Positions 8,209 through 11,946 of a stretch of 64,000 nucleotides of DNA are shown here, in pieces. The position numbers and the translations under genes were made by a program. The stretch lies in contig JAFQGP010000075.1 of NCBI GenBank assembly GCA_017415485.1, positions 635 through 64,634 on the forward strand, in the 5' to 3' direction. The notes under the pieces are model-generated. The model made no database searches, was not told where the DNA came from, and worked only from the letters and a program-made list of their open reading frames with translations. Numbering within the stretch: the stretch's first letter is position 1; every line of letters begins with the position of its first letter. Origin of the DNA: Clostridia bacterium. GTDB lineage: Bacteria > Bacillota > Clostridia > Oscillospirales > CAG-272.

Positions 8209-10491
8209 GTGAGAAACATTGTAAATCTTAATTCGGATTGGTTGTTTGTCAAGAATACGACCGACATCTCTCTCCGCGAAGGCGAAAAGATCAGCCTTCC
8301 CCACACCTGGAACGCCGAAGACGGCTTTGACGGCGGCAACGACTATTTCAGAGGCTCCTGCCTCTACAAGAAGACTCTTGAGAAGTCCTCTCTCCCCGAG
8401 GCTGACCTTTATTATCTCGAATTCCGCGGCGCAAATTCCTCCGCTGACGTTTATGTTGGCGGCAAGAAGCTCGCGCACCACGACGGCGGTTATTCGACCT
8501 GGAGAGTAAACATCACCGAGGAGATCACCGATGCGACAGAGATCGCAGTTGTTGTTGATAACGCTCCCAATGAGACCGTTTACCCCCAGATGGCGGACTT
8601 CACCTTCTACGGCGGTCTTTACCGTAACGTAAACCTCGTTTGTGTCAACAAGGCTCATTTTGACCTTGATTACTACGGCGCACCCGGCATCAAGATCACT
8701 CCCGCAATTAATGGCAAGGATGCAAAGGTTGAGGTCGAGGTATACGTCAAGGATCTCGCCGAGGGTCAGAAGATCGTTTACACGATCTATGACAAGGAAG
8801 AAAACGAGATCGCAAAGGCTGAGACTACCGAGACCAAGGTAAACCTTGAGATCAAGAACGTTCATCTTTGGAACGGCCGCAAGGACCCCTACCTCTATTG
8901 CTGTGAGGCACAGATCGTTGAGGGCGTGACCGTTATCGATAATGTTTGCAGCCGATTTGGTTGCCGCACCTTCAAGATCGATCCCAACAACGGCTTTATC
9001 CTCAACGGTGAGGAATACCCCCTCCGCGGCGTATCGCGTCACCAGGACAGATGGGGCGTCGGTAACGCGCTTCTTCCCGAGCATCACGAGGAGGATATCG
9101 ACCTCATTTGCGAGGTTGGTGCAACCACCATCCGTCTTGCTCACTATCAGCACGATCAGTATTTCTATGATCTCTGCGACGAGCGCGGTCTCGTTATTTG
9201 GGCGGAGATCCCCTATATCTCGAAGCATATGCCCGGCGGACGCGAGAACACCATCTCGCAGATGAAGGAGCTCGTTTCGCAGAACTATAACCATCCCTCG
9301 ATCGTAGTCTGGGGTCTCTCCAACGAGATCGGCATCGGAGGCGCAGATGAGGATCTTCTTGAAAACCATAGAATCCTCAACGATATGTGCCACGAGATGG
9401 ATAAGACCCGTCTGACCACCATCGCGGCTGTTTCGATGTGCAAGATGGACGATCCCTATCTCCGGATCCCCGACGTTGTTTCCTACAACCACTATTTCGG
9501 TTGGTACGGCGGCGACACCACTATGAACGGCCCTTGGTTCGATAAGTTCCACGCAATGCATCCCACCATCCCGATCGGCTGCTCCGAGTACGGATGCGAG
9601 GCGCTCAACTGGCACACCTCCGAGCCCAAGCAGGGCGACTACACCGAGGAATATCAGTCCTATTACCACGAGGAGCTTATCAAGCAGCTCTTCACCCGCA
9701 AGTTTATGTGGGCGACCCACGTTTGGAATATGTTCGACTTCGGCGCAGATGCACGTGCAGAGGGCGGCGAGAACGGACAGAACCACAAGGGTCTTGTCAC
9801 TATGGACAGAAAGTACAAGAAGGACTCCTTCTATGCATACAAGGCTTGGCTCGTTTCTCCCGAGGTCGATCCCTTCGTTCACCTTTGCTCGAAGAGATAC
9901 ATCGACCGCGTTGAGGACGTGACCAAAGTTACCGTATACTCCAACCTCCCCGAGGTCGAGCTCTTCGTAAACGGCAAGTCTGTCGGCAAGAAGACCTCTC
10001 CCGACCATTTCTTCTACTTCGACGTGAAGAACGAGGGTGAGAGCACCATCGTTGCCAAGGCAGGCAGCCTTACCGACGAGGGCAAGATCCGCAAGGTCGC
10101 AGAGAGAAATATGGACTATGTTCTCCGTGAAGTCGGCGCGGTCCTCAACTGGTTCGACGTTGTCGAGGTTGAGGGCAGATTCTCGATCAATGACAAGATC
10201 TCCGACATTATGCAATCGAAGCGCGGCAAGCTTTGGTTCATCCGTTTCGGTCTCAAGCTCAAAAAGAAGATGGACGCAAAGAAAAAGGGTCAGAAGGGAG
10301 AAAAGAAGTCGGGCGGCTTTGACGTTGACCTCAAGGGCGGCAACATGGGCGGCATGATGGAAATGCTCGGCGGCTTCAGCGTTCTCCGTCTTTCCTCTAT
10401 GATGGGTATGATGGATATTTCTTTCACAAAGGAAGAACTCCTCAAGATGCATAAGCAGCTTACAAGAATTAAGAAACCTAAGAATAAATAA
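8209..10491 (+). CDS. uidA: GH2 glycoside hydrolase, predicted beta-glucuronidase with an extended C-terminus
   Basis: GTG start preceded by CAGGAG. Acid/base WGLSNEIG, nucleophile CSEYGCEA, YNHYFGWY. The glucuronidase-type N-x-K motif NHK is encoded at 9781-9789. Confidence 0.8.
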   Translation: MRNIVNLNSDWLFVKNTTDISLREGEKISLPHTWNAEDGFDGGNDYFRGSCLYKKTLEKSSLPEADLYYLEFRGANSSADVYVGGKKLAHHDGGYSTWRVNITEEITDATEIAVVVDNAPNETVYPQMADFTFYGGLYRNVNLVCVNKAHFDLDYYGAPGIKITPAINGKDAKVEVEVYVKDLAEGQKIVYTIYDKEENEIAKAETTETKVNLEIKNVHLWNGRKDPYLYCCEAQIVEGVTVIDNVCSRFGCRTFKIDPNNGFILNGEEYPLRGVSRHQDRWGVGNALLPEHHEEDIDLICEVGATTIRLAHYQHDQYFYDLCDERGLVIWAEIPYISKHMPGGRENTISQMKELVSQNYNHPSIVVWGLSNEIGIGGADEDLLENHRILNDMCHEMDKTRLTTIAAVSMCKMDDPYLRIPDVVSYNHYFGWYGGDTTMNGPWFDKFHAMHPTIPIGCSEYGCEALNWHTSEPKQGDYTEEYQSYYHEELIKQLFTRKFMWATHVWNMFDFGADARAEGGENGQNHKGLVTMDRKYKKDSFYAYKAWLVSPEVDPFVHLCSKRYIDRVEDVTKVTVYSNLPEVELFVNGKSVGKKTSPDHFFYFDVKNEGESTIVAKAGSLTDEGKIRKVAERNMDYVLREVGAVLNWFDVVEVEGRFSINDKISDIMQSKRGKLWFIRFGLKLKKKMDAKKKGQKGEKKSGGFDVDLKGGNMGGMMEMLGGFSVLRLSSMMGMMDISFTKEELLKMHKQLTRIKKPKNK

Positions 10492-10496
10492 ATAAA

Positions 10497-10537
10497 CAAG
10501 CTCCCGCTATCTGCAAGACGGCGGGGGCTTGTTTTTC
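10497..10537 (+). terminator. intrinsic terminator after the GH2 gene
   Basis: CAAGCTCCCGC...GCGGGGGCTTG stem followed by TTTTT. Confidence 0.75.
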
Positions 10538-10539
10538 TA

Positions 10540-10568
10540 TTGACTTATTGGCAAAAATATGCTATAAT
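10540..10568 (+). promoter_or_regulatory. near-consensus sigma-A promoter driving the small-ORF transcript
   Basis: TTGACT (10540-10545), 17-bp spacer, TATAAT (10563-10568). Confidence 0.7.
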
Positions 10569-10684
10569 ACTGTCGATATCTCCGGATATCCGGAGAGTGC
10601 CATAAACGGTGGCGGTTGCTTCCCATAAAGCGGGAATGCATAAATATTTCTTTTTGCCTTCCCGATGAGGGGAGGTGATGTTGA

Positions 10685-10777
10685 ATGGAATTTACACTTT
10701 TAGAAGTATTGGGTATTTTAACCTTTATTTTTATGGTTTTGTCTTATCTCAACGATCTTTACAATAAAAAGAAATAA
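10685..10777 (+). CDS. 30-aa hydrophobic peptide with a lysine tail, candidate type I toxin
   Basis: MEFTLLEVLGILTFIFMVLSYLNDLYNKKK. The GGAGG at 10671-10675 lies 9 nt upstream and is sequestered in the hairpin CCTTCCC-GATGA-GGGGAGG (10657-10675). Too short to appear in the ORF track. Confidence 0.55.
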   Translation: MEFTLLEVLGILTFIFMVLSYLNDLYNKKK

Positions 10778-10850
10778 CCGCCTCAGCTTCCAAACATAGG
10801 CGGTTATTTCTATAATCGTACATTGGAAGCAACCGTCATCGGTGCTCTCC
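10762..10850 (-). ncRNA. about 87-nt antisense sRNA overlapping the 3' end of the small ORF, candidate antitoxin
   Basis: Bounded by a consensus minus-strand promoter (10857-10885). On the minus strand the hairpin 10809-10772 is followed by CTTTTTATT. Ends are predicted from sequence only. Confidence 0.5.
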
Positions 10851-10856
10851 GTTATT

Positions 10857-10885
10857 ATTATACCACAAATGAGTTGATTTGTCAA
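10857..10885 (-). promoter_or_regulatory. perfect-consensus sigma-A promoter on the minus strand
   Basis: The minus strand reads TTGACA (10885-10880), 17-bp spacer, TATAAT (10862-10857). Confidence 0.7.
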
Positions 10886-10896
10886 CTCATTTTTTA

Positions 10897-11946
10897 TTAT
10901 TTATCGTTCCAGATCGGATTTCCAAGAGCGAGGCGGAGATCCTTGTTGACGTCAAATACCTCGGCGCGGTAGAAGGCTGCGGTGGGGTCGCAGTCGATGG
11001 CGATGGTCACGCCCTCCTCGCAGGAGAATTCAACGCTTTCAACAACGCCCTTGTCGCTTATGAGGTCGAGGCGGTAGTTGTGCTCGGGATTCTTCACGCT
11101 CTTGTGGAAGTCGCACGCGGAAACGGTGAGGCGTTGACCTTCAAAATTCAGGTGTCCGCCCATACGTGTGTCGCCGATGCACATCTTGATCCCGACGGGG
11201 CCGCAAACGAAGTCGCCCTCGCGGAGATGCTGAATGTAGGACACGTTCTTTCGCTCTGCCGAGTAGATCGTGGTCAGCGCGCGGTCGGAGCAGCAGGCGT
11301 GACCGTCGCCGCCCGCACAGCAGTAAAGGCGCTTGCCGAGCGCGAGGATGTCGCAGTAGAGCTTGTAGTTGTTCTCGGTGTGCTTCGATTCGAGCGACTT
11401 ATATGTGACCTCGATGCCAGTGTAGTCGCGGAAATAATAGTCGAGAGGATCCTCCGAGAGCATTTTCTGCTTTGGGTGGGGATGAACGAAGAAGCCGCCA
11501 AGCGAGAGCACCTTTTCAATGATCTCGCAGAATCTTTCTTTAGTAAATTTAGGATAAATGAAGTGACCTTCCTCACCGCCCTCGAACTGATACTCGTGGA
11601 AGGAGTGAAGGAGCTCCTCGGTCGACTTGGGGCCGGGGAAGATCATATTGTAATGCATAGAATTGCATTCGCATTCAATATCAAGGATAGCGGTGCCCGG
11701 CTCTGTTCCGCCGATGAAGGTGCCGTCTGCCCACTCGGGAAGATACATATGGCGAACCTGCTTGTGGTCGAGGATTGCGGCAAAATCCATGCCGAGTGCT
11801 TCCATTGCGCCCTTCCAATGGTCAAGGTTGCGCTTGCCGTCGGCGGTTCCGCCGGTTGCGGCGTGGTCATGAAGCTCTCCGAAAAATGCCCTTCTGCCCT
11901 CATAAAGAGCGGTGAGATGGGCGATCTCCTTGTCTGTTGCGTACAT
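10897..11946 (-). CDS. PHP-domain-like metal-dependent phosphoesterase (hypothetical)
   Basis: 349 aa. GELHDHAATGG and several further His/Asp clusters (ILDHKQ, FFVHPHP) resemble the PHP fold. Assignment is tentative. Confidence 0.5.
   Translation of the reverse strand: MYATDKEIAHLTALYEGRRAFFGELHDHAATGGTADGKRNLDHWKGAMEALGMDFAAILDHKQVRHMYLPEWADGTFIGGTEPGTAILDIECECNSMHYNMIFPGPKSTEELLHSFHEYQFEGGEEGHFIYPKFTKERFCEIIEKVLSLGGFFVHPHPKQKMLSEDPLDYYFRDYTGIEVTYKSLESKHTENNYKLYCDILALGKRLYCCAGGDGHACCSDRALTTIYSAERKNVSYIQHLREGDFVCGPVGIKMCIGDTRMGGHLNFEGQRLTVSACDFHKSVKNPEHNYRLDLISDKGVVESVEFSCEEGVTIAIDCDPTAAFYRAEVFDVNKDLRLALGNPIWNDK

What the first reader, a model, noticed from the sequence alone, without database searches (positions are those of the whole stretch)
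10540..10900. Candidate type I toxin-antitoxin module: convergent consensus promoters, a 30-aa membrane peptide and a 3'-overlapping antisense RNA
The 400-bp gap between the GH2 gene and the PHP gene has no ORF in the track but is highly organised.
- Plus strand: TTGACT-17-TATAAT (10540-10568).
- A short ORF at 10685-10777 encodes MEFTLLEVLGILTFIFMVLSYLNDLYNKKK, one hydrophobic helix with a KKK tail.
- Its GGAGG is buried in the hairpin CCTTCCC-GATGA-GGGGAGG (10657-10675).
- Minus strand: a perfect TTGACA-17-TATAAT (10885-10857) faces it. The hairpin 10809-10772 followed by CTTTTTATT would end an sRNA of about 87 nt that overlaps the last codons and the 3' UTR of the ORF.
- The mRNA 5' UTR (10591-10623) can pair with 10825-10851 as 10 + 17 bp around a 6-nt internal loop. 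This encloses the whole ORF in a fold-back.
- The predicted sRNA 5' end is complementary to that same 3' segment, so it would compete with the fold-back.

This logic is that of the txpA/RatA, bsrG/SR4 and hok/Sok families, and the peptide looks like holin-like Hol-Tox peptides. I cannot say whether this exact family has been described.
Basis: partly seen in the sequence, partly recalled or inferred. Interest (0 to 1): 0.8.

Follow-up and report, generated by a model that had tools for sequence, protein, structure and literature searches.

The report
Type I toxin-antitoxin module, TxpA/Hol-Tox kind
The 360-bp gap holds a self-contained gene pair, a 30-residue membrane peptide mRNA and a facing antisense RNA, that belongs to a large, so far uncharted branch of the known TxpA/BsrG/SprG (Pfam Hol_Tox) type I toxin-antitoxin family in uncultured gut Clostridia.

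Summary
This includes both near-consensus promoters, the 30-aa ORF, the buried SD, the antisense terminator and a 27-bp 5'-3' fold-back (mRNA fold z = -9.3).

It is not a one-off. Three seeded scans recovered well over 200 homologous modules in Oscillospiraceae, Ruminococcus and other Eubacteriales gut MAGs and on predicted viral contigs. They are often multi-copy or in tandem.

Across 111 full-length copies:
- Homology in the 58 aligned copies stops at the two -35 boxes, and both promoters are kept in all 111.
- The ORF evolves as a protein (pN/pS 0.20).
- The 5' hairpin and the antisense terminator covary.
- Each copy's 5' and 3' arms fit each other better than other copies' arms (-42 vs -28 kcal/mol).

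The window peptide misses Pfam on its own. However, 15 of 47 sister peptides hit Hol_Tox, which TxpA, BsrG and PepG1 also hit, and profile comparison links them (96%).

Antisense-only remnants occur (9 of 65). Toxin-only remnants do not (0 of about 100).

Verdict: a new member, and a large new branch, of a known kind. Transcripts, toxicity and the translation switch remain untested.

The parts
10540..10568 (+). toxin-mRNA promoter TTGACT-17-TGcTATAAT
   Evidence: 11/12. A promoter scoring 10/12 or better sits at this position in 107 of 111 relatives, with the TG extension in 100. Homology of the 58 aligned modules begins at this -35 box.
10575..10900 (+). predicted toxin mRNA (about 325 nt; TSS inferred 7 nt after the -10 box)
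   Evidence: Fold -118.7 kcal/mol, z = -9.27. The ends are inferred from the promoter and terminator, not measured.
10575..10590 (+). 5'-terminal hairpin GAUAUC-UCCG-GAUAUC
   Evidence: all 6 pairs show changes on both sides across 58 relatives (GC<->AU, UA<->CG).
10591..10623 (+). 5' arm of the long-range helix (11 bp, 6-nt bulge, 16 bp)
   Evidence: 92-98% of cells are paired in 58 relatives. The arms differ but stay complementary in distant relatives.
10631..10639 (+). CGGGAAUGC segment, able to pair either with the end of the 5' arm (CUUCCC) or with the anti-SD
   Evidence: Nascent-transcript folds. These pairings are possible in 92% and 85% of cells in relatives, but covariation is weak.
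10656..10676 (+). anti-SD / SD hairpin GCCUUCCC-GAUGA-GGGGAGGU
   Evidence: P unpaired 0.004. 92% of cells are paired in relatives (helix 6).
10685..10777 (+). toxin ORF, 30 aa, MEFTLLEVLGILTFIFMVLSYLNDLYNKKK (stop codon included)
   Evidence: pN/pS is 0.20 and differences by codon position are 837/192/1455. hhalign to the Hol_Tox-positive sister peptides gives 96.2%.
10770..10811 (-). terminator hairpin of the antisense RNA; the same helix also forms in the mRNA; apical loop carries UUGG on the antisense strand
   Evidence: 6 pairs covary (helix 7). UUGG is in the loop of 50 of 91 distinct hairpins.
10825..10851 (+). 3' arm of the long-range helix, fully covered by the antisense RNA
10762..10850 (-). 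predicted antisense (antitoxin) RNA, about 88 nt. It overlaps the last four sense codons (NKKK), the stop codon and the 3' UTR, including the 3' arm.
   Evidence: Promoter; fold z = -6.0 with terminator and U-run. The ends are inferred.
10857..10885 (-). antisense-RNA promoter TTGACA-17-TGgTATAAT
   Evidence: 12/12. It scores 12/12 in 100 of 111 relatives and 11/12 or better in 110. Homology of the 58 aligned modules ends at this -35 box.
10867..10900 (+). mRNA terminator hairpin AAAUGAGUUGA-UUUG-UCAACUCAUUU plus U-run; it contains the -35 box of the antisense promoter
   Evidence: Compensatory changes are seen in close relatives (L037, L038). A canonical plus-strand terminator is detectable in only 39 of 111 relatives.

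Best explanation
This is a chromosomal type I toxin-antitoxin module of the TxpA/BsrG/SprG (Pfam Hol_Tox) kind.

A strong promoter makes a stable mRNA of about 325 nt for a 30-residue single-helix membrane peptide with a KKK tail. Three features keep the mRNA closed:
- Its 5' end sits in a hairpin.
- Its 5' UTR pairs over 27 bp with its 3' UTR.
- Its SD is buried in a local anti-SD hairpin.

A perfect-consensus promoter lies inside the mRNA's own terminator. It fires the other way and makes an antisense RNA of about 88 nt. This RNA is fully complementary to the last four sense codons, the stop codon, the shared hairpin and the 3' arm of the fold-back.

Inferred steps:
1. The two RNAs first meet through the complementary hairpin loops (UUGG on the antisense side).
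2. The antisense RNA displaces the imperfect 5' arm.
3. The resulting perfect duplex is cut by RNase III and the mRNA is lost, as for RatA/txpA and SR4/bsrG.
4. The freed 5'-arm end (CUUCCC) can re-pair with the SD region, so translation stays off.

Shown here: the sequence features, their conservation, coding selection, covariation and family membership of sister peptides. Inferred: the transcripts, their ends, toxicity, RNase III and the order of events.
For: Anatomy in the window:
- Searches show all the features.

Family size and spread:
- 6 peptide homologues were found by exhaustive phmmer, in different genomic contexts.
- Scans seeded on the 3' arm, on the K-tail/terminator and on the 5' arm gave 81, 119+ and 116+ genome stretches. 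Most hits lie in Clostridia gut MAGs, many with several copies or tandem arrays.
- 88 of 116 hits on viral contigs carry the module.

Coding signal:
- pN/pS is 0.20, against 0.68 and 3.8 in the other two frames.
- All ORFs are 27-31 aa long.

Peptide family:
- 15 of 47 sister peptides hit Hol_Tox, the best at 29.5 bits against a cut-off of 23.3.
- The profile of the window's subfamily against the Hol_Tox-positive subfamilies gives hhalign 96.2%, E = 2.5e-9.
- Fozo 2010 equates 'holin-like toxins' with the TxpA family.

Promoters:
- Both are conserved in all 111 copies. The antisense promoter scores 12/12 in 100 of them.

RNA structure:
- 94% of cells are paired against about 48% when the partners are slid.
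- The 5' hairpin and the terminator covary.
- The long-range helix forms in the MFE of 109 of 111 copies.
- Cognate arms give -42.3 against -28.3 kcal/mol for non-cognate arms. The cognate arm ranks first in 23 of 50.
- A permutation test on the outer helix gave 0 of 5000.
- G.U cells outnumber A.C cells 161 to 33 on the plus strand.

Toxin-antitoxin logic:
- 9 of 65 evaluable 3'-seeded copies lack the toxin's 5' half.
- 0 of about 100 evaluable 5'-seeded copies lack the antisense gene. Fisher p = 1.4e-4.
Against: - There are no expression data and no toxicity test.
- The window peptide alone hits no Pfam, NCBIfam or PHROG family, and no Rfam family matches.
- The SD is predicted closed in every state modelled, and slightly more open when the antisense site is blocked (0.118 against 0.004). 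How the toxin is ever translated is therefore unexplained, and a translational effect of the antisense RNA is not supported by folding.
- Only 39 of 111 relatives show a canonical plus-strand terminator after the 3' arm.
- The invariance of the 3' arm in the first set, and of the K-tail in the second, comes partly from the search seeds.
- The orphan asymmetry compares sets drawn with different seeds and capped scans.
- Some TxpA-like peptides are not toxic when tested. YhzE-2 is one precedent.
Confidence: 0.8

Rival explanations
1. The locus encodes a small membrane peptide with a housekeeping or regulatory role, not a toxin. Its mRNA is tuned by a cis-antisense RNA. [quoted passage not shown]
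For: - No toxicity was tested.
- There are weak NCBIfam similarities to ComI, a 30-aa regulatory membrane peptide.
- Fozo 2010 found YhzE-2 non-toxic despite type I-like organisation.
- The window copy sits among ordinary sugar-use genes, not in a prophage.
Against: - Homology to Hol_Tox, the family of the proven toxins TxpA, BsrG and PepG1.
- Multi-copy, tandem, patchy distribution, and presence on viral contigs.
- The module is absent from the same spacer in a strain 96.7% identical.
- Antisense-only remnants occur, but toxin-only remnants never do.
Confidence: 0.13
2. The region is a mobile or selfish non-coding repeat (MITE-like), or a structured non-coding RNA. On this reading its inverted repeats give the fold-back, and the ORF is incidental.
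For: - The element is repeated, about 345 bp long, with sharp homology borders and inverted arms.
- The UTR arms are more conserved than the ORF.
Against: - The ORF keeps its frame and a length of 27-31 aa, with pN/pS 0.20 and third-position bias. The other two frames do not.
- Peptide profiles are homologous to a protein family.
- The arms are not at the ends of the element. The ends are promoter -35 boxes.
- The helix carries conserved G.U pairs that are mismatches at the DNA level or on the other strand.
- No transposase and no target duplications were seen.
Confidence: 0.04
3. The features are a chance clustering of promoter-like and terminator-like sequences in an AT-rich spacer between two genes.
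For: The spacer is 37% G+C against 51% for the whole window, and AT-rich DNA throws up -10-like hexamers.
Against: - Fold z-scores are -9.3 and -6.0.
- The module is conserved as a unit in more than 100 unrelated genomic contexts.
Confidence: 0.01

Closest known systems
txpA/RatA (Bacillus subtilis skin element) and its Enterococcus faecalis relative EF3263
   Same: - The toxin is a small peptide with an N-terminal TM helix in Pfam Hol_Tox.
- A convergent antisense RNA overlaps the 3' end of the mRNA. EF3263 has an antisense RNA of about 110 nt over its 3' UTR.
- RatA acts by forming a duplex that RNase III cuts.
- The SD is unusually long. Here GGAGGUGAU gives at least 9 nt of match to the canonical 16S 3' end; txpA has 11-12.
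   Different: - The peptide here is half the length of TxpA (30 against 59 aa) and does not hit Hol_Tox on its own.
- There is no nucleotide or Rfam similarity.
- The host is an uncultured gut clostridial lineage.
- I did not find a conserved, co-varying 5'-3' fold-back whose 3' strand is the antisense target described for txpA in the papers read.
bsrG/SR4 (B. subtilis SPbeta prophage)
   Same: - BsrG (38 aa, KKK tail) hits Hol_Tox at 34.5 bits.
- SR4 binds the 3' end of the mRNA. It both promotes decay and changes the structure around a distant SD.
- The antitoxin promoter is 6-10 times stronger than the toxin promoter. Here the antisense promoter scores 12/12 in 100 of 111 copies, while the toxin promoter mostly scores 11/12.
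   Different: - Folding here does not predict tighter SD closure when the antisense RNA is bound.
- No sequence similarity of the RNAs. The best BsrG Rfam hit is 12.5 bits, E = 1.5.
sprG1-4/SprF1-4 (Staphylococcus aureus)
   Same: - PepG1 hits Hol_Tox, and some sister peptides hit the NCBIfam PepG1 model weakly (3.5e-6).
- The antisense RNA overlaps the 3' end.
- There are several paralogous copies per genome with possible cross-talk.
   Different: - There is one start codon here, not two nested peptides.
- The taxon differs.
- No secretion or haemolysis data exist.
hok/Sok and aapA/IsoA (Gram-negative type I systems)
   Same: - The full-length mRNA is locked by a 5'-3' long-distance interaction.
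- Local anti-SD hairpins keep the SD closed during transcription (the general principle is quoted).
   Different: - In those systems the antisense RNA binds the 5' region, and only after 3' processing.
- The toxins are unrelated.
- Here the antisense RNA targets the 3' strand of the long-range helix itself.
Clostridioides difficile CD-toxin/RCd type I systems
   Same: - Both are in the class Clostridia.
- Toxin and antisense genes are convergent and overlapping.
- The toxins have a hydrophobic N-terminus and a lysine-rich tail.
- The systems are often on prophages.
   Different: - Those toxins are 34-59 aa and are stated to have no homology to known type I toxins.
- The 2019 review lists TxpA-like sequences in Clostridia only for C. 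bolteae.

Membership tests
TxpA/BsrG/SprG toxins (Pfam PF16935 Hol_Tox) | The peptide matches the Hol_Tox profile above the gathering score (23.3 bits). | tested here: not met
   The window peptide gives no Hol_Tox hit even at E <= 10.
TxpA/BsrG/SprG toxins (Pfam PF16935 Hol_Tox) | Homology to family members shown through intermediates. | tested here: met
   15 of 47 peptides from homologous modules hit Hol_Tox, the best at 29.5 bits. The profile of the window's subfamily against the Hol_Tox-positive subfamilies gives hhalign 96.2%, E = 2.5e-9, over all 30 residues. The whole modules align at the nucleotide level.
Type I toxin-antitoxin system (general) | A small (under 60 aa) hydrophobic peptide with one TM helix and a charged C-terminus, evolving as a protein. 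| tested here: met
   30 aa with a KKK tail. pN/pS is 0.20.
Type I toxin-antitoxin system (general) | An antisense RNA gene with its own promoter and terminator, complementary to the toxin mRNA. | tested here: met
   At the sequence level only. The promoter scores 12/12, and the terminator hairpin is followed by a U-run. Both are conserved, and the stem covaries. Transcripts were not observed.
Type I toxin-antitoxin system (general) | The peptide is toxic when over-produced, and the antisense RNA neutralises it. | not testable with these tools
   The only indirect support is the asymmetry of remnants: 9 of 65 antisense-only against 0 of about 100 toxin-only.
TxpA/RatA-type organisation (Gram-positive) | The antisense RNA lies on the 3' side, convergent, overlapping the 3' UTR and the end of the ORF (definition in T1TAdb). 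| tested here: met
   The predicted antisense RNA 10850-10762 covers codons 27-30, the stop codon and the 3' UTR.
TxpA/RatA-type organisation (Gram-positive) | The duplex is degraded by RNase III. | not testable with these tools
   Inferred from RatA and SR4.
Rfam antitoxin RNA families (RatA, SR4/BsrG, SprF and others) | A match to a covariance model. | tested here: not met
   No family comes near its gathering score. BsrG scores 12.5 bits against 55.
hok/Sok-type long-distance-interaction mRNAs | A conserved 5'-3' long-range helix in the toxin mRNA. | tested here: met
   (109 of 111 copies form it).
hok/Sok-type long-distance-interaction mRNAs | The antisense RNA binds the 5' leader of a 3'-processed mRNA, and the toxin is of the Hok family. 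| tested here: not met
   The antisense RNA lies at the 3' end. The peptide is unrelated to Hok, with no Pfam hit.

The most novel reading that the evidence does not exclude
The module stands for a very large, unannotated radiation of TxpA-type type I systems in uncultured gut Oscillospirales. In these systems the antitoxin may work by strand displacement. Its 5' end mimics the mRNA's own 5' arm and competes for the 3' arm of a co-evolving 27-bp end-to-end helix. That would release a CUUCCC segment which re-wires a four-part anti-SD/SD switch about 170 nt away. This would be long-range allosteric antisense control combined with RNase III decay. Antisense-only 'orphan' copies would serve as anti-addiction genes against incoming paralogues.
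Probability: 0.3. Interest if true: 0.6.

Novelty: new member of a known kind. Interest (0 to 1): 0.42.

Why it matters
[quoted passage not shown] In the class Clostridia they have been studied almost only in C. difficile, and the 2019 review lists TxpA-like sequences only in C. bolteae.
- This window opens onto hundreds of natural variants of one compact RNA-controlled module in dominant but uncultured gut and rumen bacteria and their phages.
- The natural variation already shows which helices are under selection. The family is therefore a ready-made data set for how toxin mRNAs are kept silent, and a source of small portable RNA switches.
- For genome annotation, the practical result is a set of sequence signatures that find these loci: the K-tail/terminator motif AAAAAGAAATAACCGCC, the arm cores, and two facing consensus promoters about 345 bp apart.

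Tried and rejected
- An exact 29-mer from the ORF found nothing in genome contigs.
- tblastn of the peptide against plasmids found nothing.
- Rfam at E <= 10 gave only chance hits.
- Pfam, NCBIfam and PHROGs gave nothing significant for the window peptide.
- A profile search of solved structures found nothing.
- Synteny led nowhere for homologues. In 28 loci carrying the neighbouring 349-aa gene, the module is absent from the same spacer, even at 96.7% identity.
- A MAFFT alignment of concatenated arms (A4) misaligned the outer helix, so RNAalifold recovered only 12 inner pairs. I relied instead on alignment-free tests of cognate against non-cognate duplexes. The second of these used crude segment boundaries that misfire in some copies.
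- The alternative pairings 1:2, 2:3 and 1:4 in the 5' UTR are compatible with 85-97% of cells but have too little two-sided variation to prove.
- I considered that antisense binding closes the SD further, as SR4 does. Folding does not support this.
- I considered a MITE or terminal-inverted-repeat origin and rejected it (see rival explanations).
- T1TAdb supplements were not available.
- A literature search for type I systems in Ruminococcus, Oscillospiraceae or Faecalibacterium found nothing relevant.
Full report
**1. What is in the window**

The 400-bp spacer lies between the glycoside hydrolase family 2 gene (8209-10491, +; Pfam GH2 domains) and a convergent 349-aa gene (10897-11946, -; no Pfam hit).
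- The promoter scan finds TTGACT-17-TATAAT at 10540-10568 (+, 11/12) and TTGACA-17-TATAAT at 10885-10857 (-, 12/12). Both have a TGn extension.
- The ORF 10685-10777 encodes MEFTLLEVLGILTFIFMVLSYLNDLYNKKK. Its GGAGG lies 9 nt upstream of the ATG.
- That GGAGG sits inside the hairpin CCTTCCC-GATGA-GGGGAGG at 10657-10675.
- The predicted mRNA 10575-10900 folds to -118.7 kcal/mol, z = -9.27. It has a 5'-terminal hairpin and an end-to-end helix, 10591-10601 and 10608-10623 with 10825-10851 (11 + 16 bp, 6-nt bulge). It also has the SD hairpin, a strong hairpin just after the stop codon, and a terminator at 10867-10892.
- The predicted antisense RNA 10850-10762 folds with z = -6.0. It ends in a 14-bp stem followed by UUUUUAUU.
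- The T-run of that terminator is the complement of the AAT AAA AAG AAA codons of the NKKK tail.
- The -35 box of the antisense promoter lies inside the mRNA terminator.

**2. Known libraries do not name it directly**

No Rfam family comes near its threshold. The peptide hits no Pfam, NCBIfam or PHROG family. There is a single copy in the window.

**3. Relatives**

The exact peptide occurs on 6 metagenome contigs with the same neighbours, 96-100% identical.

Loci carrying the neighbouring 349-aa gene come from 28 related MAGs: Eubacteriales, Clostridia and Oscillospiraceae from ruminant and other animal guts. None has the module in the same spacer.
- A strain 96.7% identical (L012) has 260 bp of unrelated sequence there.
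- L007 has a small multi-TM gene there.
- The spacer is therefore a variable spot, and the module is patchily distributed.

An exhaustive phmmer search of 1.84 billion representatives gave 6 peptide homologues at 65-90% identity. Their contigs carry the whole module in other genomic contexts.

Three exact-pattern scans of one-genome-per-species contigs gave these results.

| Seed | Stretches |
|---|---|
| 3' arm | 81 |
| K-tail/terminator | 119+ |
| 5' arm | 116+ |

- Apart from a minority of chance hits in high-G+C genomes, the hits lie in Oscillospiraceae, Ruminococcus, Acutalibacteraceae, Angelakisella, Faecalibacterium, Eubacterium CAG:180, Lachnospiraceae and unnamed Clostridia. Hosts are ruminants, deer, chicken, mouse and human.
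- Many genomes hold 3-5 copies or tandem arrays.
- 88 of 116 hits in IMG/VR viral contigs also carry the module.

**4. The ORF is a gene**

Across 55 distinct coding sequences the ORF keeps its frame and a length of 27-31 aa.
- Over 173 pairs, pN/pS is 0.20, against 0.68 and 3.8 in the other two frames.
- Differences fall 837/192/1455 on codon positions 1/2/3.
- The 47 distinct peptides share M-x-x-T-[LW]-x-x-L, one hydrophobic helix and an [NH]KK[KNR] tail.
- Fifteen of them hit Pfam Hol_Tox, the best at 29.5 bits against a cut-off of 23.3.
- A profile of the window's own subfamily aligns end to end with a profile of the Hol_Tox-positive subfamilies: hhalign 96.2%, E = 2.5e-9.
- Fozo et al. 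[quoted passage not shown] **5. Both promoters are part of the unit**

In the 58-module alignment, similarity starts at the plus-strand -35 box and ends at the minus-strand -35 box. The flanks are unrelated.

| Promoter (111 full-length copies) | Score | TG extension |
|---|---|---|
| Sense | 10/12 or better in 107 | 100 copies |
| Antisense | 12/12 in 100; 11/12 or better in 110 | 43 copies |
| Shuffled controls | peak at 7-8 | not applicable |

A stronger antitoxin promoter is what is reported for SR4.

**6. RNA structure under selection**

On the 58-module alignment, 94.0% of cells in the consensus structure are paired, against 40-52% when partners are slid.
- The 5'-terminal hairpin changes on both sides at all 6 pairs.
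- The post-stop hairpin, which is the antisense terminator, covaries at 6 pairs.
- The long-range helix is 92-98% paired but nearly invariant in that set. This is partly because the set was found with a 3'-arm seed.

The set found with the K-tail seed removes that bias. There the arms differ yet match:
- L136: GAGCAUACC/GGUAUGCUC
- L146: GGCACUGCC/GGCAGUGCC
- L188: GGGCAUACC/GGUAUGCCC (all)

Further tests of the long-range helix:
- Cognate 5'/3' segments pair at -42.3 kcal/mol on average, against -28.3 for non-cognate pairs. The cognate partner ranks first in 23 of 50 cases and in the top three in 38 of 50.
- A cruder test on the outer helix alone gave 0 of 5000 permutations as good.
- The helix forms in the MFE of 109 of 111 copies.
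- Non-Watson-Crick cells are mostly G.U on the plus strand (161, against 33 A.C), including two nearly fixed G.U pairs. This points to an RNA helix in the sense transcript rather than a DNA inverted repeat.
- The apical loop of the shared hairpin carries CCAA (UUGG on the antisense strand, a YUNR-type motif) in 50 of 91 distinct hairpins.

**7. Toxin-antitoxin logic in the remnants**

Nine loci keep the antisense promoter, the 3' arm, the terminator and the last toxin codons. They have lost the toxin promoter, 5' UTR and start codon.
- Among evaluable 3'-seeded copies, 9 of 65 are such antisense-only remnants.
- Among about 100 evaluable 5'-seeded copies, none lacks the antisense part. The two apparent exceptions run into runs of N.
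- Fisher p = 1.4e-4.
- The two sets come from different, capped scans, so this is supportive rather than decisive.

**8. How it most likely works**

*Shown:* the parts, their conservation, coding selection, covariation and family links.

*Inferred from txpA/RatA and bsrG/SR4:*
1. The sense RNA is a stable, closed toxin mRNA.
2. The antisense RNA of about 88 nt is made in excess.
3. It pairs with the last four sense codons, the stop codon and the 3' UTR, probably starting at the complementary loops.
4. It displaces the imperfect 5' arm.
5. The perfect duplex is cut by RNase III.

*Folding of shortened transcripts:*
- Before the 3' arm exists, or when it is blocked, the end of the 5' arm (UUGCUUCCC) pairs with the SD region, and CGGGAAUGC pairs with the anti-SD.
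- In the full-length fold the local anti-SD closes the SD.
- These alternative pairings are possible in 85-97% of cells across relatives, but there is too little two-sided change to prove them.
- The SD is predicted closed in all states (P unpaired 0.004 full-length, 0.118 with the antisense site blocked). The step that ever allows translation is therefore unknown.

**9. Weak points**
- No transcript, toxicity or RNase data.
- The mRNA 3' end is clear in the window, but a canonical terminator is seen in only 39 of 111 relatives, against 12 in shuffles.
- There is seed bias, as noted above.
- The TxpA, BsrG and PepG1 sequences came from memory.

**10. Comparison and novelty**

The module works like txpA/RatA, bsrG/SR4 and sprG/SprF, and its peptide is a remote member of their family. 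That makes it a new member of a known kind.

Features I did not find described in the papers read:
- Its abundance in uncultured gut Oscillospirales. The 2019 Clostridia review lists TxpA-like sequences only for C. bolteae, and a literature search found nothing for these taxa.
- The co-evolving end-to-end helix whose 3' strand is the antisense target. This feature is otherwise typical of hok and aapA mRNAs.

I rate it as a solid, well-supported find of moderate interest.

Noticed in passing
L012:2874-3134 (syntenic to window 10487-10899): In a strain 96.7% identical, the same spacer holds 260 bp of unrelated sequence. It is bounded by inverted GTGGACAGTGG-type repeats and has a perfect 42-nt hairpin inside. 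It looks like a different small element occupying the same site.
   Followed up: no
L007:1049-1551 (syntenic spacer): Another relative carries a multi-TM ORF of about 130 aa, with its own consensus promoter and terminator, in the same spacer. The GH2/349-aa gene spacer is a hot spot for small insertions.
   Followed up: no
Its relatives are widespread in the same MAG clade.
   Followed up: partly
L068, L077, L079, L088, L091, L094, L096, L102, L115: These are antisense-only remnants. The promoter, 3' arm, terminator and last toxin codons are kept, and the toxin's 5' half is deleted. L115 is in the sister genome of the window's species, which also has one intact copy (L063).
   Followed up: yes
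L045 (four copies), L141 and L146 (three each), L062, L111, L064, L069, L076, L174, L177, L178, L196, L204, L205: These are tandem or clustered arrays of modules. Some mix peptide subfamilies. In some arrays the antisense -35 box of one unit lies within about 40 nt of the sense -35 box of the next.
   Followed up: partly
L038:117-299 and L039:77-340: Two degenerate copies. In one the stop codon TAA has become AAA, giving a 60-aa read-through across the hairpin and the 3' arm. In the other the 5' half is replaced, and the ORF is fused to what looks by eye like the start of a P-type ATPase gene (not checked with any tool).
   Followed up: partly
L076:28-454 and L099:5954-6406: Modules interrupted by an insertion of about 75-88 nt near the anti-SD/SD region (model position about 135).
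   Followed up: no
L161:3354-3704: A full module sits on a contig binned as Akkermansia muciniphila. All other confirmed module copies lie in Bacillota (Clostridia) bins, so this is probably a mis-binned contig.
   Followed up: no
window 10669-10679: The SD GGGGAGGUGAU offers at least 9 contiguous Watson-Crick pairs (11 counting G.U) to the canonical 16S rRNA 3' end. It is conserved across the family. An unusually long SD is also a noted feature of txpA.
   Followed up: partly
window 10841-10862: The closing stem of the end-to-end helix is followed directly by UUAUUAUUAUA, the complement of the antisense -10 box. In relatives that lack a canonical terminator, this helix plus the U-rich tract might itself end the mRNA. 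This is speculative.
   Followed up: no
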